Shown: positions 36,983 through 62,468 of the stretch, piece after piece | How the letters are laid out: every line of letters begins with the position of its first letter | How positions within the stretch are numbered: the first letter of the stretch is position 1 | Assembly: GCA_964016885.1 (NCBI GenBank) | Contig: OZ024742.1 | Location: forward strand, 364,870,001-364,934,000 | Origin: Eledone cirrhosa | Lineage: Eukaryota | Direction of reading: 5' to 3' | Length of the DNA: 64,000 nt | Position numbers and translations under genes: made by a program | Notes under the pieces: generated by a model | What the model saw: only the letters and a program-made list of their open reading frames with translations | Database searches by the model: none | Told to the model about the DNA's origin: nothing

Positions 36983-37046
<64 letters not shown>

Positions 37047-37050
<4 letters not shown>

Positions 37051-37135
37051 ATAATAAAACATTTGAAGACTAAAATCCAAAGAGGGCTAGATAAGGATAA
37101 ATATATATCAAATATATAAGAACCGTAGAGCAAAT
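37047..37135 (+). repeat. ~90-bp dispersed repeat, second copy at 40535-40623
   Basis: TTTGAAGACTAAAATCCAAAGAGGGCT.GATAAGGATA.ATATATATCAAATATATAAGAACCGTAGAGCAAA in both; each preceded by (TA)n. Confidence 0.9.
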
Positions 37136-37598
37136 ATTTATTAAAATAACAGATTAAATTTTAAGCAAAGAATCGCTGCTTTCACCCTTAACAGCATCTT
37201 CTGAAACTATAAAAATCAATCTGTGAACGCAGAAGTAAATATTTCAAAAAACGTTGCAACCGAAGGAAGACAGGAAGACGATACTTTGGTTCGTGGAAAG
37301 GTTCCCAGGAGAAGAACGGAAAAAAACGAAGATAATACGTGATTATTTGGTGCAGTGAAAACAATTACACGCAAAGACAAAACCACGTTTATGGCATACA
37401 TGAAGTTGTAGACTAATATTCTATTAGGTGGTTCATCGAGACGTTCTCTGGCAAAGAACGGAAAAAACGAAGATAATATGTCATTATGTGGAGCGTAGAG
37501 AACAATTACACGTAAAGACAAAACCACGTAAATGGTATAACTGAAGTCGTAGACAAAAATTCTATTTAGGAAACCGAATGATTCTCGGCTTCAGAGTT
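37136..37598 (+). repeat. ~460-bp dispersed repeat with an internal ~140-bp tandem duplication; second copy at 41566-42022
   Basis: Shared start ATTTATTAAAATAACAGATTAAA and shared GGAAGACAGGAAGACGATACTTTGGTTCGTGG; internal repeat AGAACGGAAAAAACGAAGATAAT occurs twice. Confidence 0.85.
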
Positions 37599-38587
37599 AA
37601 GAATAAAGTAAATAAAAAACAGAGGTAATTGAAATTGAATATATACATACACGCATCCATAAACGTACATACACAAGCATACGCGAAAACACTCGCGGTA
37701 GGTATGCAAATACAAGCGCGTACACAAAAAAAAAACACGCACGCACATACAGAACCCACGCAACGCCTGTACCCGCACACATACGAACGTATACACCAAA
37801 TACACATAAAAATATATATAAAAAATATATATATATATCTGTGTGTGCGTGTATACATAATTAAATAAACGTATATAAATATACACACATAAATACGTAT
37901 ATAACGCGCACACACATACCTATATGTAAATACACATATGTTCGCGGACCTACGTCAATCAAAACGCGAAGTACACATATACATACACCCTACATACGTA
38001 CGAACCCGCATAATCACACAGACGCAAAACTCACGTATACACAAAACCAAATGCACATGTACCAGTATATATATATAATATATACGCAATAACATATACA
38101 AGCAAATATACGTACGAGAAAGTATACGTACCTTCACAAAACATACAGGTAATATATACTTACCTATACAAAAGAGTAATGGTATAAACATAACATATAC
38201 TTAGCTAGCACATCAAGACGTAAAATATCCGTGTATAGTTCGTACTATCCGTTAGGGTATAATGTGGGGCTGTAATACAGGAAAGTTTTGTGCAATTTAT
38301 GTTTACAAGCCGAAATTGCCTCAAATTTTTTTTTTTAATGTGGTCTTTGGCGTAGAGTATTTTCAGGGCCTCGGCGGCGCAGAGGTCACATGGTCTTTTA
38401 TTTCCGTTATACGATCTAGCCTAAGCTAGGATCTCCCAGTGTAACTTATATTGCGTGTGGTTGTCTTTTAGACTCCAGATATAAGCTGAAAGTGACTTAC
38501 CTGTGACACTGACTACCTAGACAGCCATGACCTTAGCCGTTTCTGCCCCAGTAGACCCATAAGAGGTAGACCCCCACCATAACCTCA

Positions 38588-39990
38588 ATGGCAAAAAAGA
38601 CTCCCATGGGAAGGTGGATTGGGTGCACCAAAGCAGTACGGACCCCCCAAAACAATGATCAGGTAATAAAAATGGTGGCACATGCAATAGGGGCTAGTAT
38701 TAAAACTACCCTAAAGGTCCACATATTCAAATTAAACGAGAAGATCTACACCAAATATGAGGCAGCAGCCATTGGCGTCAGCATAGCTGGCGACGTTGCA
38801 AACCTTTTTATAGTGTGGTGGGAAAGGAGACTCAAAGATCTTGATGAGAGCTCCATAGACCTCATCGTGTACTCTCGTTACGTAGACGACATCACTATAG
38901 TAATAAGGACATCCCCACAAGAGAGTACTGACAAGTATGATTTAGGATGTAGCACAATGGAAAGCATCCAGCAGATAGCTAATTCCATACACCAGAGTAT
39001 AACTGTAACTATCGACTCCCCTTCCAAACACCCTAACAATAGACTACCTGTATTAGACACGGAACTCTGGATTAACACTATAGACGAGAGAGCCCAAATT
39101 CTCCACTCACACTACGCTAAAACAATGGCCTCCAAATATCTGATACTCACAAACTCAGCAGTGTCCAGTAGTGCTAAGTTTAATATTCTGATCGCAGACA
39201 TGGTACGAGTGATGAAGAACGTGTCCCGCATGTGCGACCCAACAGAAATGGAAAGACACATCCAACACTTCATCAACCGCATGCAGTTCTCTGGCTACAA
39301 CCAAAGAGACAGAATCAGAGTACACGAAGGAGCCACGGAGAAGTATAAGACCCTCATAGAACTGGACATGAAAGGAATTTTGCCATTATACATGAGCAAA
39401 TCATGGAATAGCTTAGATAGAACTAAACATAAGATAGGGAATGCCACATCATGGTACGACAACCAAAGATACCAGAGTGTCATGTTCCTGGACGCTACCC
39501 CTGGAGGGAAATTAGCTCACCAGAAAAGCCCTGAGAAAGACCCACTTAAAGATTAAGGTGGTAGAAAAGCCAGGAACCACCATAAAATCCCTGATTAGCA
39601 AAACATACTCTTTTAAGAAAACCCACTGTATTAATAGGATATGTGTTATATGTAAAGTAAACCCCCGGATAAACTGTAAAACTAGAAACATAGTCTATAG
39701 CATAAGATGTATAGACGGTACCTGCAGAAACATGACAACAACATACATAGGCGAGACAGCTCGTAGCATAGGTGAAAGGATAGACCATCAGTGGGGGGAA
39801 CTAAAATGACGAAAAAACGGTTCAGTACTATATGAACACACCAGACAACAACACGACGGTAACATAGACAACATAGAAATTAAAATAATATCTAAACATA
39901 GAAATGACCCAGCAGATAGGCAATGACAGAAGCAAGTGAAATAGAACTTAGAAGGCCAAAGCTAAACAGAAAAAATAAATGGAATAACAA
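38588..39990 (+). pseudogene. Penelope RT / GIY-YIG endonuclease, frameshifted
   Basis: ORFs 38588-39556 and 39558-39809, with read-through remnants after the stop. Confidence 0.9.
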
Positions 39991-40268
39991 AACCCAAACA
40001 AACAATACTGACCTAAGAGAAATATAAATAAATAAATAAATACATATATAAGCACAATAACAACAAATACATATAACACACACACTAGTAAACTAAGATA
40101 GAATACAATAACCAAAACAGAGTCACCCAAACACGAACACACATCAAACACTATACACACACGCAAACGCATGCGCAGAGAAGAAGACACAAATAAATAA
40201 ATAAATAAACAGATTAAATAAAGATGGCGTAGACATACAAATATAACAGGAGGAAACATAATAGCACC

Positions 40269-40303
40269 ACTGACGAGTTGCAGATGTGCAACGAAAGAAC
40301 TTT
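40269..40303 (+). ncRNA. Minimal HHR core in the Penelope 3' region; stem I disrupted
   Basis: CTGACGA-GTTGCA-gatg-TGCAAC-GAAA-GAAC-TT; homologous to the 56625-56667 motif. Confidence 0.7.
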
Positions 40304-40489
40304 CTTAGACTATATATATGTTTGTGTCTATATTATATCTGTATTTTTAGTCAGTCAATGATAAACATTGAGGAGCGAATAAATTAACTGATATAAAAGA
40401 TACGGAAGCGAAAACCAACCAAACAATGAGTGTGTTCTGTTATTAATCCTGGCAATATTATTACAACAATATGACCCTCCCCAAGTATC

Positions 40490-40534
<45 letters not shown>

Positions 40535-40538
<4 letters not shown>

Positions 40539-40617
40539 ATAATAATAAATTTGAAGACTAAAATCCAAAGAGGGCTCGATAAGGATACATATATATCAAA
40601 TATATAAGAACCGTAGA

Positions 40618-40623
<6 letters not shown>
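40535..40623 (+). repeat. ~90-bp dispersed repeat, copy 2
   Basis: Near-identical to 37047-37135; isolated between (TA)n tracts. Confidence 0.9.
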
Positions 40624-40681
<58 letters not shown>

Positions 40682-44448: not shown

Positions 44449-44525
<77 letters not shown>

Positions 44526-44702
44526 TTGAATATCAAAGAAAGACGAACCCAGATATATAGATATATGTGTTCAAATCGCAAGGGACCAGATTCGCTAAAG
44601 TGAAAAGAATACTAACTATACTAACTATAGACAATAGGGGTTGCCTGTCTCAATTTAAGAAAAAATCAAGAAAATAAATACAAATCGGAATTGTGGTAAC
44701 TA

Positions 44703-44786
44703 TCAATCACCCAGACAACTTGGTGTTGTTTCGCAATATTAATTGTGAATAGAATTACCAATTCTTGCTCATCAGTGGGTGATCAA
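44703..44786 (-). ncRNA. Canonical type I hammerhead ribozyme with a stable stem III
   Basis: Minus strand: ATCACCCA-CTGATGA-GCAA...TTGC-GAAA-CAAC-accaa-GTTG-TC-TGGGTGAT (8-bp stem I, GUC site). Confidence 0.93.
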
Positions 44787-44962
44787 TTAGTATCCTAGAC
44801 ACTTATAACTATATTAAGAACTAAATAGTGTGCTATATATAATAACGCACATGGTATCTTAGCGTGTCTCACAAACTTACACCACTAAAAATAGAAGCCA
44901 GGTCCCTGGCACTTTGAACACATATATCTATATATCTGCGTTTTTTTTCTTTTAAATTGTAG

Positions 44963-45016
44963 CTTTACTTGCCCTGATGAGTCCTTAATAGGACGAAACA
45001 TTGTTGGCTAATAAAG
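44963..45016 (+). ncRNA. Canonical minimal type I hammerhead ribozyme
   Basis: CTTTA-ctt-GCC-CTGATGA-GTCC-ttaata-GGAC-GAAAC-att-GTT-GGC-taa-TAAAG (stem I with an internal loop, GUU site). Confidence 0.92.
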
Positions 45017-45165
45017 ACTTTTGATGTATTGAAGGCTTCTTTGGTTTAATTTTTATAATTCTTCGGCTCTGTTTAATTACATTGAGCTATATCTTATACT
45101 GTAATTTCTGTAATATGAAGAGGGTGTTTAACTCCAACACACTCTAGTATTTTAATTCTTATATA

Positions 45166-45225
<60 letters not shown>

Positions 45226-45232
<7 letters not shown>

Positions 45233-45523
45233 AAGAAGAGGTGAAATCGAAAATGCAACTGGAGTCATATTTTTTTTTTAAATATATATATTTATTTGGT
45301 TCCTTTACCGGTTTCGCAGTTCTTCTGCTTTTCAAAAGGTGAGTTGAGATGGAGGGTCTGTGGTTTTTCTCAGATGTGAGAAAAACCACAGACCCTCCAT
45401 CTCAACTCACCTTTTGAAAAGCAGAAGAACTGCGAAACCGGTAAAGGAACCAAATAAATATATATATTTTTTAAAAAAATAAGACTCCAGTTGCATTTTC
45501 GATTTCACCTCTTTTTCTTTATA
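45226..45523. mobile_element. ~300-bp near-perfect palindrome carrying a core-mutated HHR on both arms
   Basis: Arms 45226-45372 and 45377-45523. At 45410-45447: CCTT-TTGAAAA-GCAG-aagaa-CTGC-GAAA-CCGG-TA-AAGG. Confidence 0.85.
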
Positions 45524-46080: not shown

Positions 46081-46321
<241 letters not shown>

Positions 46322-49249: not shown

Positions 49250-52200
49250 GTTCGGTGAATCCATACGTGCATATATATATGTGTGCATGTATGTATATAT
49301 ATATATACATACTACTGTACGTCGGTATACATATATGTATGTACGTGTACATACTTATATTTAAGTAACAGCCGTACTAAGAGTGGGAAATGAAATATCA
49401 TTTCATTTTTTCCGTTTATCGTTTTCGGTGCACCCGGCCGATTAACCCACTCGATATGCAAATTGGGCTACTCAGCCGTTAATATGCATAAGGTAAGTAT
49501 ATACGTTCAACAATCTGGCAGGAAGGTATACGTTGCTGACGATAGCTAACAAGCTTGAAACTAGTACAGCGTTCCTTTGTCAGTGTTGAACAAACGAGCA
49601 ACGGTGGTTGCTAGACACTACGGCTTAATACGGGATGTTTGTTTACAAACACACCGAGCATTATAATAAATGTTCGGTGAATCCATACGTGCATATATAT
49701 ATGTGTGCATGTATGTATATATATATATACATACTACTGTACGTCGGTATACATATATGTATGTACGTGTACATACTTATATTTAAGTAACAGCCGTACT
49801 AAGAGTGGGAAATGAAATATCGTTTCATTTTTTCCGTTTATCGTTTTCGGTGCACCCGGCCGATTAACCCACTCGATATGCAAATTGGGCTACTCAGCCG
49901 TTAATATGCATAAGGTAAGTATATACGTTCAACAATCTGGCAGGAAGGTATACGTTGCTGACGATAGCTAACAAGCTTGAAACTAGTACAGCGTTCCTTT
50001 GTCAGTGTTGAACAAACGAGCAACGGTGGTTGCTAGACACTACGGCTTAATACGGGATGTTTGTTTACAAACACACCGAGCATTATAATAAATGTTCGGT
50101 GAATCCATACGTGCATATATATATGTGTGCATGTATGTATATATATATATACATACTACTGTACGTCGGTATACATATATGTATGTACGTGTACATACTT
50201 ATATTTAAGTAACAGCCGTACTAAGAGTGGGAAATGAAATATCGTTTCATTTTTTCCGTTTATCGTTTTCGGTGCACCCGGCCGATTAACCCACTCGATA
50301 TGCAAATTGGGCTACTCAGCCGTTAATATGCATAAGGTAAGTATATACGTTCAACAATCTGGCAGGAAGGTATACGTTGCTGACGATAGCTAACAAGCTT
50401 GAAACTAGTACAGCGTTCCTTTGTCAGTGTTGAACAAACGAGCAACGGTGGTTGCTAGACACTACGGCTTAATACGGGATGTTTGTTTACAAACACACCG
50501 AGCATTATAATAAATGTTCGGTGAATCCATACGTGCATATATATATGTGTGCATGTATGTATATATATATATACATACTACTGTACGTCGGTATACATAT
50601 ATGTATGTACGTGTACATACTTATATTTAAGTAACAGCCGTACTAAGAGTGGGAAATGAAATATCGTTTCATTTTTTCCGTTTATCGTTTTCGGTGCACC
50701 CGGCCGATTAACCCACTCGATATGCAAATTGGGCTACTCAGCCGTTAATATGCATAAGGTAAGTATATACGTTCAACAATCTGGCAGGAAGGTATACGTT
50801 GCTGACGATAGCTAACAAGCTTGAAACTAGTACAGCGTTCCTTTGTCAGTGTTGAACAAACGAGCAACGGTGGTTGCTAGACACTACGGCTTAATACGGG
50901 ATGTTTGTTTACAAACACACCGAGCATTATAATAAATGTTCGGTGAATCCATACGTGCATATATATATATATGCGTGCATGTATGTATATATATATATAC
51001 ATACTACTGTACGTCGGTATACATATATGTATGTACGTGTACATACTTATATTTAAGTAACAGCCGTACTAAGAGTGGGAAATGAAATATCGTTTCATTT
51101 TTTCCGTTTATCGTTTTCGGTGCACCCGGCCGATTAACCCACTCGATATGCAAATTGGGCTACTCAGCCGTTAATATGCATAAGGTAAGTATATACGTTC
51201 AACAATCTGGCAGGAAGGTATACGTTGCTGACGATAGCTAACAAGCTTGAAACTAGTACAGCGTTCCTTTGTCAGTGTTGAACAAACGAGCAACGGTGGT
51301 TGCTAGACACTACGGCTTAATACGGGATGTTTGTTTACAAACACACCGAGCATTATAATAAATGTTCGGTGAATCGATACGTGCATATATATATGTGTGC
51401 ATGTATGTATATATATATATACATACTACTGTACGTCGGTATACATATATGTATGTACGTGTACATACTTATATTTAAGTAACAGCCGTACTAAGAGTGG
51501 GAAATGAAATATCGTTTCATTTTTTCCGTTTATCGTTTTCGGTGCACCCGGCCGATTAACCCACTCGATATGCAAATTGGGCTACTCAGCCGTTAATATG
51601 CATAAGGTAAGTATATACGTTCAACAATCTGGCAGGAAGGTATACGTTGCTGACGATAGCTAACAAGCTTGAAACTAGTACAGCGTTCCTTTGTCAGTGT
51701 TGAACAAACGAGCAACGGTGGTTGCTAGACACTACGGCTTAATACGGGATGTTTGTTTACAAACACACCGAGCATTATAATAAATGTTCGGTGAATCCAT
51801 ACGTGCATATATATATGTGTGCATGTATGTATATATATATATACATACTACTGTACGTCGGTATACATATATGTATGTACGTGTACATACTTATATTTAA
51901 GTAACAGCCGTACTAAGAGTGGGAAATGAAATATCGTTTCATTTTTTCCGTTTATCGTTTTCGGTGCACCCGGCCGATTAACCCACTCGATATGCAAATT
52001 GGGCTACTCAGCCGTTAATATGCATAAGGTAAGTATATACGTTCAACAATCTGGCAGGAAGGTATACGTTGCTGACGATAGCTAACAAGCTTGAAACTAG
52101 TACAGCGTTCCTTTGTCAGTGTTGAACAAACGAGCAACGGTGGTTGCTAGACACTACGGCTTAATACGGGATGTTTGTTTACAAACACACCGAGCATTAT

Positions 52201-52793
52201 AATAAATGTTCGGTGAATCGATACGTGCATATATATATGTGTGCATGTATGTATATATATATATACATACTACTGTACGTCGGTATACATATATGTATGT
52301 ACGTGTACATACTTATATTTAAGTAACAGCCGTACTAAGAGTGGGAAATGAAATATCGTTTCATTTTTTCCGTTTATCGTTTTCGGTGCACCCGGCCGAT
52401 TAACCCACTCGATATGCAAATTGGGCTACTCAGCCGTTAATATGCATAAGGTAAGTATATACGTTCAACAATCTGGCAGGAAGGTATACGTTGCTGACGA
52501 TAGCTAACAAGCTTGAAACTAGTACAGCGTTCCTTTGTCAGTGTTGAACAAACGAGCAACGGTGGTTGCTAGACACTACGGCTTAATACGGGATGTTTGT
52601 TTACAAACACACCGAGCATTATAATAAATGTTCGGTGAATCCATACGTGCATATATATATGTGTGCATGTATGTATATATATATATACATACTACTGTAC
52701 GTCGGTATACATATATGTATGTACGTGTACATACTTATATTTAAGTAACAGCCGTACTAAGAGTGGGAAATGAAATATCGTTTCATTTTTTCC

Positions 52794-52797
<4 letters not shown>
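49247..52797 (+). mobile_element. Tandem array of 422-bp HHR-containing units (retrozyme-like satellite), 8.4 copies
   Basis: Marker TGTTCGG at 49249, 49671, 50093, 50515, 50937, 51363, 51785, 52207, 52629; units nearly identical; flanked by (TA)n. Confidence 0.95.
49530..49572 (+). ncRNA. Minimal type I hammerhead ribozyme; repeated at 49952, 50374, 50796, 51222, 51644, 52066, 52488
   Basis: ACGTTG-CTGACGA-T-AGCT-aaca-AGCT-T-GAAA-CTAG-TA-CAGCGT; palindromic stem III (ACTAGT); GUA cleavage predicted after 49566. Confidence 0.88.
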
Positions 52798-52827
<30 letters not shown>

Positions 52828-52991
52828 CAGACGAAGCTTATCGAATAAAATGGGCATAGCTTCGGCCGTTTCGTCACTCAATAGTCTAATTAAGTCTGTA
52901 TTATTAAATTATTAAAATGTAAACTTATTGGAGTGTACACTTATGTTAATGAGTGAGGAAGATGACTTTCTGTGGGTAGGAAGATGTGTCC

Positions 52992-55302: not shown

Positions 55303-55490
55303 ATCCCCTGGAAAATTTCGGCTATTTATTCACCAGGCTAGAAATTCTAATTTAGTCCAGAAGTAGCCGTCGAAACGGCTTGAGCTCTGCCGTCGGGGTC
55401 ATACTTTTTTCCTATTCCCACTCTACTGCCCTAAGTATTGAGAACTCTGGTGCGTTATGATCCACTTGGTTCCTTATCACAATTCCTTTG

Positions 55491-55493
<3 letters not shown>
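55303..55493 (+). mobile_element. Family H140 copy including a degenerate HHR 5' half
   Basis: ATCCC-CTGGAAA-..CGGCTA...TAGCCG-TC-GAAA-CGGC-ttgagctct-GCCG-TC-GGGGT; tail ends in (TA)n. Confidence 0.72.
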
Positions 55494-55530
<37 letters not shown>

Positions 55531-55745
55531 TTTCTGAATTTGTTTAGCAAGATTCTTTATCTGAAAACGTGTGCTGAAACCGATATTGTTATACTTTGGG
55601 GGGGGGGGGGTCATGTTGCCAATAAGAAACACACGCACCAGTCGTTTCACTTCAATTTATTATAATAAATTTATAAATTTAGGAATTTATAAATTTCCGG
55701 TTGGTTGGTTGGTTCCACAACCAGATGGTTGTTTATATATTGCCA

Positions 55746-56430
55746 GAACCAAATGGGAAAAAATGGTAAATAATGACACAAATGGGACCTGCCCCTTGTA
55801 TAGGAGCAAATTTTGGAATAGAATAGAAAGAACTAGGAATAAGGCTAATAGAATAAACTCATGGTATGATAGCAATAAATACCAGAGTGTAATGTTCATC
55901 GATACAACCCCTAGAGGTGAATTAGCTTACAAATTTAGAAGGGCCCTAGATAAACATAAACTCAATATTAAGAAAGTAGAAAGACCAGGTACCTCCATAA
56001 AAACACTTATTAGCGAGACATACCCTTTTCAAGGACCTCCCTATATAGATAAGAAATGTATAATCTGTAAAATATGCCCCCATATTAACTGTAAAACAAG
56101 AAATGTAGTATATAGCATAAGATGTACTGAAGGACAATGTAGAGATACAAATATAGTGTACATAGGTGAGACAGCTCGTAGTATAGGGGAACGGATAAAT
56201 GAACACTGGCGAGAGCTTCAAGATAGTAAAGAATCATCTGTACTCTACCAACATGCTAAAATAGGACATACGGGTAAATTAGAGAACATAGAAATAAAAA
56301 TAGAATCTACACACAGAAAAGACGCAATGTTTAGACAAATCACAGAGGCAATAAACATAAATGAATTATAAGCAAAATTAAATAGAAAGCATGAGTGGAA
56401 CAGCAACATCACAACTTACAATTAAGGACA
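55746..56430 (+). pseudogene. Penelope linker + GIY-YIG endonuclease fragment
   Basis: YQSVMFIDTTPRGELA..CIICK..NCKTRNVVYSIRC..YIGETARSIGERINEH..RQITEA; the first ~57 aa of ORF 55571 derive from the inverted repeat. Confidence 0.9.
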
Positions 56431-56624
56431 AAATGAAAACAGACACGCACATACAACAAACAACCAACCAGTAACATGTAAATAAACAAATAAATAAACG
56501 AATAAAAAACACACAGACACCCGGATGTAACACATGCGCAAACTAAGCACAACACACACACAAAAACAAGATGGCGTAGGGCAGAACAAAGGAGAGGCAC
56601 AAAAAGCAAAGAAAAGAATCCCCA

Positions 56625-56667
56625 GTCACTGAAGAGGTCACAGAATGTGTGACGAAAGAACTTTGAC
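56625..56667 (+). ncRNA. Minimal type I hammerhead ribozyme in the Penelope pLTR
   Basis: GTCA-CTGAAGA-G-GTCACA-gaatg-TGTGAC-GAAA-G-aa-C-TT-TGAC; cleavage predicted after 56663. Confidence 0.82.
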
Positions 56668-56813
56668 AATATATAAACAACCATCTGGTTGTGGAACCAA
56701 CGAACCAACCGGAAATTTATAAATTCCTAAATTTATAAATTTATTATAATAAATTGAAGTGAAAGCAGCTGGTGCGTGTGTTTCTTATTGGCAACATGAC
56801 CCTCCCAAAGTAT

Positions 56814-56898
<85 letters not shown>

Positions 56899-56902
<4 letters not shown>

Positions 56903-56966
56903 GTTAAAACGATCAAATTTTAGTTTAGAACATGTTCAAAACTAAAATTTGATCGTTTTAATACTT
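56899..56966. repeat. 68-bp near-perfect palindrome abutting (TA)n
   Basis: AAGTGTTAAAACGATCAAATTTTAGTTTAGAACA|TGTTCAAAACTAAAATTTGATCGTTTTAATACTT. Confidence 0.9.
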
Positions 56967-57099
56967 GTATCGCGGCTCTGTAAAACACTTGAAAATGTAC
57001 ATTGAGCTTTTTGTGATACCGGTAACCGGCTAGTACTTAGTACTACCCTCCATATTTATAGTTGTATCTATCAAACATATAAATATAAATATTCTTATT

Positions 57100-58049
<950 letters not shown>

Positions 58050-58053
<4 letters not shown>

Positions 58054-59043
58054 GAAAGAAGGTTTACATGGATTGCTATACAAAAAAGTTTTTAATCACA
58101 TAGCTTACATTTGTTTCACTGAACTGGTATGTCTAGAGATCGCTATCCGCTTAATTTTGCGTTACTCGATCGCCAATACAGAATTATAACCAGTCAGATC
58201 TTCGGAGCATGCGAGAATGAAGAAAATACACAGGCAAGAAAAGAAAAGAAAATACAGGCTTCCATATGAAGTAGTGATGGCATTCAATTAGAACATAACA
58301 ACAATTACAACAATGCTATCAATAAATTATTTAAGGAGACCCTGACATTACTTAGGTGGGGGTATATAATGTATCTAATGTTACGGCGTGTAAAACTAGC
58401 TGTCATAAGGCAAAAAGTATCGTAGTGTATATCAATTTTAAATTATAAAGATAAGCTAGTTTTTACAGTCTTTCTCTTCATATTCAACAGTATACATGAG
58501 TGGGACCACTGTCAAAGCTAAATAGTTGTAGAGTTAATACAGAGGTTAACGAATTAATATACGCATATATTTACGCACACACACACACACACACACATAC
58601 ACACACGCATACACACACACATATATATATATATATATACACATATATACACATGCATGTGTACATAGACACATACATACACATCAATATACACTCGTAC
58701 AAAAATATACATGCATGCAAAGAGAAAAGAGTGCTAATTGTAATTATGTCAAATAATTTATTGATAGCATTGTTGTAATTGTTGTAATTGTTGTTATTGT
58801 TCTAATTGAATGCCATCACTACTTCATATAGTAGCCTGTACTTTCTTTTCTTTTCTTGCCTGTGTATTTTCTTCATTCTCGCATGCTCCGAAGATCTGAC
58901 TGGTTATAATTCTGTATTGGTGATCGAGTAACGCAAAATTAAGCGGATAGCGATCTCTAGACATACCAGTTCAGTGAAACAAATGTAAGCTATGTGATTA
59001 AAAACTTTTTTGTATAGCAAACCATGTAAACCTTCTTTCCTGA
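58050..59043. mobile_element. ~285-bp inverted repeats around a 420-bp spacer; each arm carries an HHR-like fold
   Basis: 58050-58332 is the reverse complement of 58751-59043. At 58879-58997: TCGCAT-GCT-CCGAAGA-T-CTGA-CTGGT...ACCAG-t-TCAG-T-GAAAC-aaat-GTA-AGC-t-ATGTGA. Confidence 0.85.
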
Positions 59044-59219
59044 TTTATTATTACTCGAAGTGTTTACAACATAGGAATTACGGCATACCCGCAGCATCAC
59101 TATGAAAACGCCTTGTTGAGTCAAACCAAGCCAAGCGTTAATATCATCCACTACCTGGAATACCATAACTAGGACTTCACCTAAGTGGACTGCATTTACC
59201 TATTATTTGTTAATCCGTA

Positions 59220-59394: not shown

Positions 59395-61120
59395 TTGTAC
59401 GTCTATATACATATATGTATGTACGTATACATACTTATATTTAAGTAACAGCCGTACTAAGAGTGGGAAATGAAATTTCGTTTCATTTTTTTCCGTTTAT
59501 CGTTTTCGGTGCACCCGGCTGATTAACCCACTCGATATGCAAATTGGGCAACTCAGCCGTTAATATGCATAAGGTAAGTATATACGTTCAACAATCTGGC
59601 AGGAAGGTGTACGTTGCTGACGATAGCTAATAAGCTTGAAACTAGTACAGCGTTCCTTTGTCAGTGTTGAACAAACGAGCAACGATGGTTGCTAGACACT
59701 ACGGCTTAATGCGGGATGTTTGTTTACAAACACACCGAGCATTATAATAAATGTTCGGTGAATCCATACGTACATATATATATGTGTGCATGTATGTATA
59801 TATATATACATACTACTGTCCGTCTGTATACATATATGTATTTACGTTTACATACATATATGTAAGTAACAGCCGTACTAAGAATGGGAAATGAAATTTC
59901 GTTTCATTTTTTCCGTTTATCGTTTTCGGTGCACCCGGCCGATTAAACCACTCGATATGTAAATTGGGCTACTCAGCCGTTAATATGCATAAGGTAAGTA
60001 TATATGTTCAACAATCTGGCAGGAAGGTATACGTTGCTGACGATAGCTAATAAGCTTGAAACTAGTACAGCGTTCATTTGTCAGTGTTGAACAAACGAGC
60101 AACGATGGTAGCTAGACACTAAGGCTTAATGCGGGATGTTTGTTTACAAACACACCAAGCATTATAATAAATGTTCGGTGAATCCATACGTACATATATA
60201 AATGTGTGCATGTATGTATATATATACACACTACTGTACGACTGTATACATATATGTATGTACGTATACATACTTATATTTAAGTAACAGCCGCACTAAG
60301 AGTGGGAAATGAAATTTCGTTTCATTTTTTTCCGTTTATCGTTTTCGGTGCACCCGGCTGATTAACCCACTCGATATGCAAATTGGGCAACTCAGCCGTT
60401 AATATGCATAAGGTAAGTATATACGTTCAACAATCTGGCAGGAAGGTGTACGTTGCTGACGATAGCTAATAAGCTTGAAACTAGTACAGCGTTCCTTTGT
60501 CAGTGTTGAACAAACGAGCAACGGTGGTTGCTAGACACTACGGCTTAATACGGGATGTTTGTTTACAAACACACCGAGCATTATAATAAATGTTCGGTGA
60601 ATCCATACGTGCATATATATATGTGTGCATGTATGTATATGTATATATACATACTACTGTACGTCGGTATACATATATGTATGTACGTGTACATACTTAT
60701 ATTTAAGTAACAGCCGTACTAAGAGTGGGAAATGAAATATCGTTTCATTTTTTCCGTTTATCGTTTTCGGTGCACCCGGCCGATTAACCCACTCGATATG
60801 CAAATTGGGCTACTCAGCCGTTAATATGCATAAGGTAAGTATATACGTTCAACAATCTGGCAGGAAGGTATACGTTGCTGACGATAGCTAACAAGCTTGA
60901 AACTAGTACAGCGTTCCTTTGTCAGTGTTGAACAAACGAGCAACGATGGTTGCTAGACACTACGGCTTAATGCGGGATGTTTGTATACAAACACACCGAC
61001 CATTATAATAAATGTTCTGTGAATCCATACGTACATATATGTGTGTGCATGTATGTATATATATATGCATACTACTGTACGTTTGTATACATATATGTAT
61101 GTACGTGTACATACTTATAT
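59395..61120 (+). mobile_element. Second, more diverged array of the 422-bp HHR unit (~4.1 copies)
   Basis: HHRs start at 59611, 60031, 60450, 60872 (spacing 420/419/422); cores intact; loop II AACA/AATA variation. Confidence 0.95.
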
Positions 61121-61164
61121 ATATATATAAATATATAATATATATAAATATATATATATATATA

Positions 61165-61470
61165 TATGATATTAAATAAATGGAAACTATATTTATAAAA
61201 CCATATTTATTTCGTTATATATATTTCAGGGATATCATATTAACAATATGTTATGCCATCTTCAGACAAAATACAATATAAACAGTCTTATAAATAAATA
61301 GATACGACATACCTTTCAATCACCTTGCATTTGTGAGGTTGATATAAGACTGTTTATATTGTATTTTGTCTGAAGATGGCATAACATATTGTTAATATGA
61401 TATCCCTGAAATATATATAACGAAATAAATATGGTTTTATAAATATAGTTTCCATTTATTTAATATCATA
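61165..61470. mobile_element. Foldback cassette (128-bp arms, 50-nt spacer) with an HHR on each arm
   Basis: 61165-61292 is the reverse complement of 61343-61470. At 61362-61427: TATTTTGT-CTGAAGA-T-GG..CATATT-gtt-AATATG..CC-T-GAAA-TATATA-TA-ACGAAATA. Confidence 0.85.
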
Positions 61471-61562
61471 AATATACTCCAAATACTTGTTGAGTGCTTT
61501 TATATCAGTTATAAATATTTACTCGTTGTTAACCCAACAATTTAAATATAACTTTCCATGTA

Positions 61563-61652
<90 letters not shown>

Positions 61653-61658
61653 TATATC

Positions 61659-61710
<52 letters not shown>

Positions 61711-61727
61711 TATATCTATATATATAA

Positions 61728-61798
<71 letters not shown>

Positions 61799-61815
61799 CA
61801 TATCTATATATATAA

Positions 61816-61884
<69 letters not shown>

Positions 61885-61888
<4 letters not shown>

Positions 61889-62468
61889 TGCCACTGTACG
61901 TCTGTATACATATATGTATGTACGTATACATGCATACTTACATTTAAGTAAGTGCCATACTAAGAGTGAGAAATGAAATTTCGTTTTCATTTTGTTTCAA
62001 TTTAACGTTTTCGGTATGCCTGACCGATTTAACTCACTCAATATGCAAATTAGGCTGCTCAGCCGTTAATTTTCATAAGGAAAGTATATACTTTCGAACG
62101 TTCAACTATCTGGCAGATGGGTAAACGGTGCTGATGATAGCTAAAAAGCTTGAAACTAGTACATCGTTCCTGTGTCAGTGTTGAACAAAAAGGTGACGTG
62201 GTTGCCTTAACACCGTATGGCATAAATTCAGGCTGTTCAGTTTGTTTACAAACGAACAAAGCGACGTTATAACAAGCGCCGCTAAACTGATACGTGCATA
62301 TATGTATGTGTACCTGTATGCATATGTATATATATATGTATATATATATATGTGCATGCTACTGTACGTCTGTATACATATATGTATGTACGTATACATG
62401 CATACTTACATTTAAGTAAGTGCCATACTAAGAGTGAGAAATGAAATTTCGTTTTCATTTTGTTTCAA
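61885..62468 (+). mobile_element. Retrozyme-like repeat, subfamily B (~1.4 units)
   Basis: Homologous to the 422-bp unit and near-identical to the reverse complement of 42560-43318; flanked by (TA)n. Confidence 0.88.
62124..62168 (+). ncRNA. Minimal type I hammerhead ribozyme (subfamily B)
   Basis: AACGGTG-CTGATGA-T-AGCT-aaaa-AGCT-T-GAAA-CTAG-TA-CATCGTT. Confidence 0.88.

What the first reader, a model, noticed from the sequence alone, without database searches (positions are those of the whole stretch)
55583..56820. The inverted terminal copy of a Penelope element begins at the predicted ribozyme cleavage site
Seen: the HHR at 56625-56667 predicts cleavage after 56663 (CUU|UGACAAU). The inverted copy at the element's 5' side matches 56664-56820, and similarity ends at 55745 (TGGCAAT vs TGACAAT, one mismatch), or at 55742 if that mismatch is not tolerated. 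The boundary is therefore within about 3 nt of the cut. Established: inverted partial pLTRs at Penelope 5' junctions are known. Inference: the inverted piece is a cDNA of the 3' cleavage product, a mechanistic footprint linking HHR cleavage to pLTR inversion.
Basis: partly seen in the sequence, partly recalled or inferred. Interest (0 to 1): 0.75.

Follow-up and report, generated by a model that had tools for sequence, protein, structure and literature searches.

The report
Truncated Penelope copy with inverted arm
This is an ordinary, cut-down copy of a Penelope-like jumping gene whose backwards-facing end piece stops 0 to 4 bases from the predicted cut site of its small self-cutting RNA motif, a match that is likely incidental because inverted pieces of other Penelope copies stop elsewhere.

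Summary
The inverted arm starts at 55529, not 55583: it carries a 54-base PLE 'tail' and the whole insert (55529-56821) sits between two (TA)n runs. The single 'mismatch' at 55743 falls in a conserved Ala codon of the ORF body, so the arm's sure inner end is 3-4 bases downstream of the predicted cut; an end exactly at the cut needs imperfect 4-base microhomology. The hammerhead is a minimal type I motif with compensatory helix II changes in a second family in the window. The cleavage link is not supported beyond this copy: in distant PLE families 0 of 4 independent junctions (0 of 5 loci) lie within 3 bases of the cut and all run upstream of it; none of the listed joints or loose ends of this high-copy family in four runs marks the cut, though only 15 of 366 and 24 of 1275 rows were shown. 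Best reading: two reverse-transcription events primed on opposite strands, joined head to head. The scan noted the same coincidence before in another genome, with a similar verdict. Known architecture; low interest.

The parts
55492..55528 (.). (TA)n run, left half of the likely target microsatellite
   Evidence: sequence
55529..55582 (-). 54-base PLE 'tail': element sequence beyond the common 3' end, reading as an open frame that is likely the start of the next ORF unit; present only on the inverted arm
   Evidence: 24 of 30 letters match a loose end behind 56819 in run X5; open frame; likeness to the N-terminus of full-length homologue P0044 is not significant, E 1.6
55583..55741 (-). inverted pLTR arm, copy of 56668-56821
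55742..55745 (.). head-to-head junction: 1 base of sure microhomology (55742), 3 of 4 bases compatible with both arm and body
   Evidence: column-by-column comparison; Ala codon test
55742..56371 (+). 5'-truncated end of the PLE ORF: end of the RT thumb region, Cys linker, GIY-YIG endonuclease with CCHH; no RT core in this copy
   Evidence: Pfam GIY-YIG E 9e-4, below the curated cut-off; 1667 relatives at E<=0.001; invariant C, C, YxG, R, H, H, H columns
56372..56821 (+). AC-rich 3' region and 3' pLTR; ends at the same motif as the second PLE family at about 40495; predicted ORF-start ATG at 56796
56625..56667 (+). minimal type I hammerhead: helix I 4 bp (56625-28 with 56664-67), core 56629-35, one unpaired G, helix II 6 bp, 2-bp helix III with AA loop, CUU triplet, predicted cut 3' of 56663
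   Evidence: motif scan and second-family comparison; helices I and II in the MFE fold; no Rfam hammerhead hit
56819..56898 (.). (TA)n run, right half of the likely target microsatellite
   Evidence: sequence

Best explanation
The insert 55529-56821 is a 5'-truncated, Neptune-type Penelope-like element in a (TA)n run, likely made by two reverse-transcription events primed on opposite strands of the cut target and then joined head to head, with the short arm likely ending near the ribozyme through ordinary variable truncation. Shown: both outer ends are element 3' ends, one at 56821 and one 54 bases further on in the tail; the junction has 1 sure and up to 4 imperfect bases of microhomology; both flanks are (TA)n. 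Inferred: the endonuclease cut both strands of the (TA)n run; one RT began at the first internal start site and copied about 1.08 kb (through an uncut ribozyme, into the ORF), a second began at the tail site and copied about 0.21 kb; the two cDNA ends were joined at the microhomology. The arm length is set by where the second cDNA stopped and found a partner, which varies from copy to copy.
For: Outer ends at the two positions that define a tail; the Anolis PLE protein cuts and extends both strands and starts RT at two internal sites that bound the tail (PMC11167929); inverted 5'-truncated partners, tails at one end and (TA)n targets are the usual PLE pattern (PMC8557442) and inverted repeats vary in size by copy (PMC2377424); arms in other families end at -130, -119, -74 and -8/-6 from the cut; three opposite-strand joints listed for this family or its relatives have all six coordinates more than 40 bases from the cut; the long copy itself was read through an uncleaved ribozyme (sequence); the mismatch is body-derived.
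Against: The arm does end within 0-4 bases of the cut, which has a 1-5% chance per arm under a uniform null. The comparison set is small (95% upper bound on the share of arms at the cut about 0.5) and comes from distant families. The listing for the own family is heavily cut and did not show this copy's own junction, so it lacked its positive control. Summed depth downstream of the ribozyme is about twice that upstream (medians 1325 and 618 thousand in X1), so many copies do end somewhere between about 56580 and 56700, and the bins cannot place that step because related families share the ribozyme. An earlier scan note calls the cut site 'mildly favoured' in another genome (unchecked). Two-strand priming is shown in vitro for a different clade only.
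Confidence: 0.5

Rival explanations
1. Run-off from a ribozyme-cut RNA: the second RT copied an RNA whose 5' end was made by hammerhead cleavage at 56663/56664, ran off, and its 3' end annealed to the body cDNA through 4 bases with one mismatch resolved in favour of the body.
For: The arm never crosses the cut and 3 of the last 4 bases fit it; the motif is conserved with compensatory changes; R2 elements have 5' junctions set by ribozyme cleavage (PMC3774820, abstract start); cleavage of PLE precursors has been proposed (PMC4209133).
Against: Sure arm end is +3/+4, not 0; 0 of 4 independent junctions elsewhere are at the cut and all include sequence upstream of it, which a cleavage product cannot template; no listed loose end or joint at 56660-56668 in four runs (24 of 1275 and 15 of 366 rows shown); helix III cannot close as a monomer (2-base loop) and its dimer form has two A-A mismatches with a positive duplex energy, +1.4 kcal/mol; ribozyme mutants do not affect insertion in vitro and no RNA ends were found at the cut in Anolis.
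Confidence: 0.2
2. Pausing at the folded ribozyme: RT coming from the tail stalls where it first meets helix I (56667-56668) of the folded, perhaps protein-bound or dimerised, motif and switches to the other cDNA; no cleavage is needed.
For: The perfect match ends exactly at the last base of helix I; L039/L040 end inside their ribozyme, 6-8 bases upstream of the cut; earlier scan notes report ends gathering at ribozyme edges rather than at the cut (unchecked).
Against: Helix I is only 4 bp and the whole motif folds at about -9 kcal/mol; the long cDNA of the same insert passed the motif; three of four other junctions lie well upstream.
Confidence: 0.2
3. The present junction is secondary: a later deletion between short matching bases, or two separate insertions into the same (TA)n run, produced the boundary, which then says nothing about the RNA template.
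For: The copy is old: arm and 3' pLTR differ at 4 further positions plus gaps, and at 56702 and 56768 the 3' pLTR carries the minority base of the family; no target-site duplication can be read inside (TA)n.
Against: Head-to-head arm plus body with a tail on one side is the standard primary PLE structure; five other loci show the same layout; no filler or third sequence at the junction.
Confidence: 0.1

Closest known systems
Canonical endonuclease-bearing Penelope-like elements (Neptune/Nematis type), insertion structure as drawn in Craig et al. 2021 (PMC8557442, passages read)
   Same: C-terminal GIY-YIG with CCHH, Cys linker, hammerhead in the pLTR, 5' truncation, inverted 5'-truncated partner, tail at one end, (TA)n target
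   Different: Tail is 54 bases rather than 30-40; first Cys of the linker is Tyr in this copy; RT core absent, so clade placement is by linker and target only
PAc (Poseidon of Anolis carolinensis), Frangieh et al. 2024 (PMC11167929, main text parts 1-2 of 4 read)
   Same: Two internal RT start sites that bound the tail, AT-rich target, both strands cut and extended, hammerhead near the ORF start
   Different: Different clade; there the cut lies 26 bases after the start codon, here 132 bases before the predicted ATG; that paper does not treat inversion junctions in the parts read
Minimal type I hammerheads of metazoan PLEs, Cervera and de la Pena 2014 (PMC4209133, parts 1-2 of 4 read)
   Same: Short helix I, long helix II, unpaired base between positions 9 and 10.1, G10.1-C11.1, tiny helix III; pairs of motifs on opposite strands 100-700 bp apart are reported there, which implies arms that include the ribozyme
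   Different: Loop 3 (AA) is not palindromic here; this arm lacks the ribozyme
L1 twin priming and dual priming (PMC2837659, passages read)
   Same: Two RT events on opposite target strands joined at an internal junction with little microhomology
   Different: In twin priming the second RT starts at an arbitrary internal site; here both start at the element's own 3' start sites, as in dual priming, with no poly(A)
R2 retrotransposon 5' HDV-like ribozyme (PMC3774820, search listing and abstract start only)
   Different: In R2 the match to the junction is systematic and shown experimentally; here it is one copy and a different ribozyme class

Membership tests
EN+ Penelope-like element | C-terminal GIY-YIG endonuclease with CCHH | tested here: met
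   Pfam GIY-YIG E 9e-4 (below gathering score); VY..YIG, R, H, E and C126, C131, H169, H174 present and invariant or nearly so in alignment A1
EN+ Penelope-like element | Telomerase-like RT upstream in the same ORF | tested here: inconclusive
   Truncated away in this copy; the 69%-identical family at 38430-40495 has an RT remnant (YVDD, weak RVT_1 E 0.005) and full-length relatives carry RT motifs
EN+ Penelope-like element | pLTR with inverted 5'-truncated partner and one-sided tail | tested here: met
Neptune clade | CX2-5CxxC linker between RT and EN | tested here: inconclusive
   CxxC present, first Cys is Tyr in this copy; intact CX4CxxC in the second family; the linker is shared with Nematis
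Neptune clade | Insertion bias for microsatellites such as (TA)n | tested here: met
   both flanks are (TA)n
Neptune clade | Placement in an RT phylogeny with named Neptune elements | not tested
   no RT in this copy and no named reference sequences in hand
Minimal type I hammerhead of PLEs | Core CUGANGA and GAAA with helices I and II, G10.1-C11.1, unpaired base after position 9, NUH triplet | tested here: met
   two compensatory pairs in helix II between the two window families
Minimal type I hammerhead of PLEs | Palindromic positions 15.2-16.2 and loop 3 allowing a dimer helix III | tested here: not met
   G-AA-C: outer pair fits, loop gives two A-A mismatches, duplex energy +1.4 kcal/mol; same letters in the second family
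Minimal type I hammerhead of PLEs | Self-cleavage at the predicted site | not testable with these tools
   needs in vitro cleavage or RNA end mapping
Ribozyme-defined insertion boundary (R2-like) | Junctions of independent copies coincide with the cleavage site | tested here: not met
   0 of 4 independent junctions in distant PLE families; own-family listing incomplete and without a row at the cut; small sample

The most novel reading that the evidence does not exclude
In this high-copy family a sizeable share of inverted arms are run-off cDNAs from RNAs cut by the minimal hammerhead, so that arm ends peak at 56664: a genomic record that PLE hammerheads cleave in the germ line and that the cleaved RNA feeds the second strand of a two-primer insertion.
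Probability: 0.12. Interest if true: 0.6.

Novelty: already known. Interest (0 to 1): 0.17.

Why it matters
The role of hammerheads in endonuclease-bearing PLEs is stated to be unclear (PMC8557442), and the steps that make inverted arms are unproven. A peak of arm ends at the cut would be in vivo evidence of cleavage and would tie it to insertion. One copy cannot show that, and the other junctions seen here point away from it. What the locus does show well is that both outer ends are RT start sites (one with, one without the tail), which fits a two-primer insertion. The family has thousands of copies in at least two organisms, so the test is cheap for anyone with the assembly.

Tried and rejected
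No whole genome is held, so a genome-wide breakpoint map could not be made. Rfam: no hit at gathering scores in the window and no hammerhead among 16 matches at E<=10 around the element. Viral contigs: protein, alignment and ribozyme-pattern scans gave no loci. Metagenome scan with the family's 3'-end motif: 0 matches. Prokaryote genomes: alignment scan gave none; the ribozyme pattern gave 14 loci, none with blastn or tblastn likeness to the element, dropped as chance. Plasmids: no match. Of the 41 metagenome loci, 7 showed an inverted pLTR-like arm: L028, L032, L036, L039, L040 were scored; L013 and L031 were dropped because no hammerhead could be located; the other 34 showed no such arm, most being short contigs. 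L039 and L040 share both breakpoints within 2-3 bases but differ in flanks and were counted as one junction. The many loose ends before 56624, the 5' edge of the ribozyme (160 contigs in X1, 198 in X10), were considered as breakpoints and set aside: their mixed consensus is A-rich like a direct 3' region, which fits related families sharing the motif. No RNA holder listed: no evidence either way on expression. The second PLE in the window has no inverted arm. Fold-back self-priming at a palindrome (PMC3846280) was considered and not adopted: no palindrome spans this junction. Another register for helix III with the cut one base later was rejected because helix I would start with a mismatch. 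Lunse et al. 2017 (PMC5785218) is not held and was seen only as a citation in PMC6765202. Four literature searches listed no title that maps inverted-arm ends against the hammerhead cut; subscription papers are not covered, and supplements were not read.

Full report
What is there. The region holds a 5'-truncated Penelope-like element (PLE) on the + strand. The frame 55748-56368 encodes the end of the RT thumb region, a Cys linker and a GIY-YIG endonuclease (Pfam E 9e-4, below the curated cut-off; 1667 relatives at E<=0.001; invariant C, C, YxG, R, H, H, H columns in a 30-sequence alignment). An AC-rich 3' region and pLTR follow to 56821, then a (TA)n run. A second PLE family, 69% identical, lies at about 38430-40495 with an RT remnant and the same 3'-end motif. 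The linker and the (TA)n target point to the Neptune type; an RT tree was not made.

The ribozyme. A scan of both strands of the window for core plus helix II gave 4 hits, two of them at matching places in the two PLE 3' ends. The motif at 56625-56667 has a 4-bp helix I, a 6-bp helix II with two compensatory pair changes in the second family, an unpaired G after position 9, and a CUU triplet; these traits match the minimal PLE hammerheads of Cervera and de la Pena (PMC4209133). Rfam finds no hammerhead here. Helix III would close on a 2-base loop as a monomer, which the folding program rejects, and the dimer form has two A-A mismatches (+1.4 kcal/mol). That a U before the cut is the weakest allowed base is recalled, not tested. 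Activity is untested.

The arm. The reverse complement of 55583-55745 matches 56664-56821 (92.7%). Two corrections follow. First, the arm runs on to 55529, where a (TA)n run begins: a contig in run X5 continues past 56819 with 24 of 30 letters matching this extension (table 7, compared by eye), and it reads as an open frame (likeness to a homologue's N-terminus not significant). This is the PLE tail, found at one end only (PMC8557442) and bounded by the two internal RT start sites in the Anolis element (PMC11167929). So both outer ends of the insert are element 3' ends. Second, the inner boundary: the mismatch at 55743 sits in codon 55742-55744, GCC, at a column that is Ala in 16 of 21 homologues with a residue and GCC in the second family. 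The body therefore most likely reaches 55742, and the arm's sure end is 56668 or 56667, the 3' foot of helix I. An end at 56664 remains possible if the two cDNAs annealed over 4 bases with one mismatch; a family variant at 56666 is not excluded either, since only 40 of 353 variant rows were shown.

Test on other copies, own family. No genome is held. Contigs of four runs were laid on 55746-56821: 17756 in X1 and 15823 in X10, 161 in X6, 32 in X5, so the family or its close relatives are very abundant in two organisms. Of 366 joints 15 were shown; 3 join opposite strands (56540/56791, 56621/56744, 55746/56557) and none has a coordinate within 40 bases of the cut. Of 1275 loose-end rows 24 were shown; none lies at 56660-56668. 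No place was flagged where a fifth of the depth begins or ends. These tables are cut, and this copy's own junction did not appear, so they are weak evidence. Summed depth in X1 has medians of 480, 618 and 1325 thousand over body, 3' region upstream of the motif and pLTR downstream of it: extra pLTR pieces are common, but the bin just upstream of the cut (1505) is as high as the one just downstream (1539), and related families that share the ribozyme blur the step. The tool warns that such depth is no copy number.

Test on other copies, distant families. A metagenome scan gave 41 PLE loci. Five had an inverted arm and a locatable hammerhead. Arm inner ends relative to the first base after the cut: L028 -130, L032 -119, L036 -74, L039 -8, L040 -6; the last two share both breakpoints and count as one. 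So 0 of 4 independent junctions are within 3 bases of the cut, and all include sequence upstream of it, which a 3' cleavage product cannot template. One of the four lies inside the ribozyme. The sample only bounds the share of arms at the cut below about one half. Two more loci with arms (L013, L031) were dropped for lack of a motif.

Literature. Inverted repeats of Penelope vary in size by copy (PMC2377424, passage). Dual motifs on opposite strands 100-700 bp apart are reported, which implies arms that contain the ribozyme. For the Anolis element the protein cuts and extends both strands, ribozyme mutants do not alter insertion, and no RNA-seq reads start or end at the cut. Self-priming on palindromes has been proposed for inverted junctions (PMC3846280, passages); no palindrome spans this one. 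L1 twin and dual priming give the template for a two-primer model (PMC2837659, passages). R2 is the known case of a ribozyme-set boundary (PMC3774820, listing only). A 2026 preprint on retrozymes and PLEs (10.64898/2026.07.22.740005, parts 1-2 of 5) did not address junctions in the parts read. Searches listed no title mapping arm ends against the cut.

Earlier scan notes. The same coincidence was noted in another genome and judged only mildly favoured (e1-9850483); two others report ends gathering at the 5' edge of the motif, not the cut (e1-7858061, e1-9958889). These are unchecked notes; they prompted my look at 56624, which was inconclusive.

Verdict. Shown: the anatomy, the tail, the microhomology range 0 to +4. 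Inferred: two RT events on opposite strands joined head to head, with the arm's end set by variable truncation (0.5); rivals are run-off from a cleaved RNA (0.2), pausing at helix I (0.2) and a secondary rearrangement (0.1). The architecture is known; the cleavage link is unproven and not favoured by the copies that I could see. Interest 0.17.

Noticed in passing
window 44499-45162: Between two (TA)n runs lie two dissimilar type I hammerheads head to head about 200 bases apart: a minus-strand one (core from 44775) with about 9-bp helix I, a full helix III and a GUC triplet, and a plus-strand one (core from 44974); no inverted repeat links them.
   Followed up: partly
window about 38430-40495: Second, decayed PLE family (69% identical) with RT remnant, frameshifts, a hammerhead at 40270-40303 whose helix I is broken, the same 3'-end motif and (TA)n target, and no inverted arm.
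   Followed up: partly
window about 37045-37140 and 40535-40625: A stretch of about 90-100 bases occurs twice in direct orientation, each time right after a (TA)n run, bracketing the second PLE (read by eye).
   Followed up: no
window about 55367-55490 and 46085-46220: The left flank of the element is itself a repeat that recurs 9 kb away, both times ending in (TA)n (read by eye).
   Followed up: no
window 56898-56967: A near-perfect 70-base hairpin directly right of the element's (TA)n run; further foldbacks at 45226-45523 (147-base arms) and 58045-58295 with 58798-59048 (251-base arms).
   Followed up: no
window 50000-52900 and 59400-62200: Tandem array with a period of about 422 bases, near-identical copies, on both sides of the region that holds the element.
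   Followed up: no
runs X1-X20: Sixteen organism labels hold sampled words of this element, eight besides organism A at shares of 0.21-0.27; laid contigs of three of them cover most of the stretch. Wide spread among relatives or horizontal transfer was not examined.
   Followed up: partly
L039:781-1086 and L040:2260-2565: Two loci with different flanks share both inversion breakpoints within 2-3 bases, suggesting that an arm-plus-body unit was itself copied as a whole.
   Followed up: partly
L001:1239-1273 and L015:21-51: Hammerhead cores with the U3-A8 covariation in place of C3-G8 downstream of PLE ORFs, a variant described in PMC4209133.
   Followed up: no
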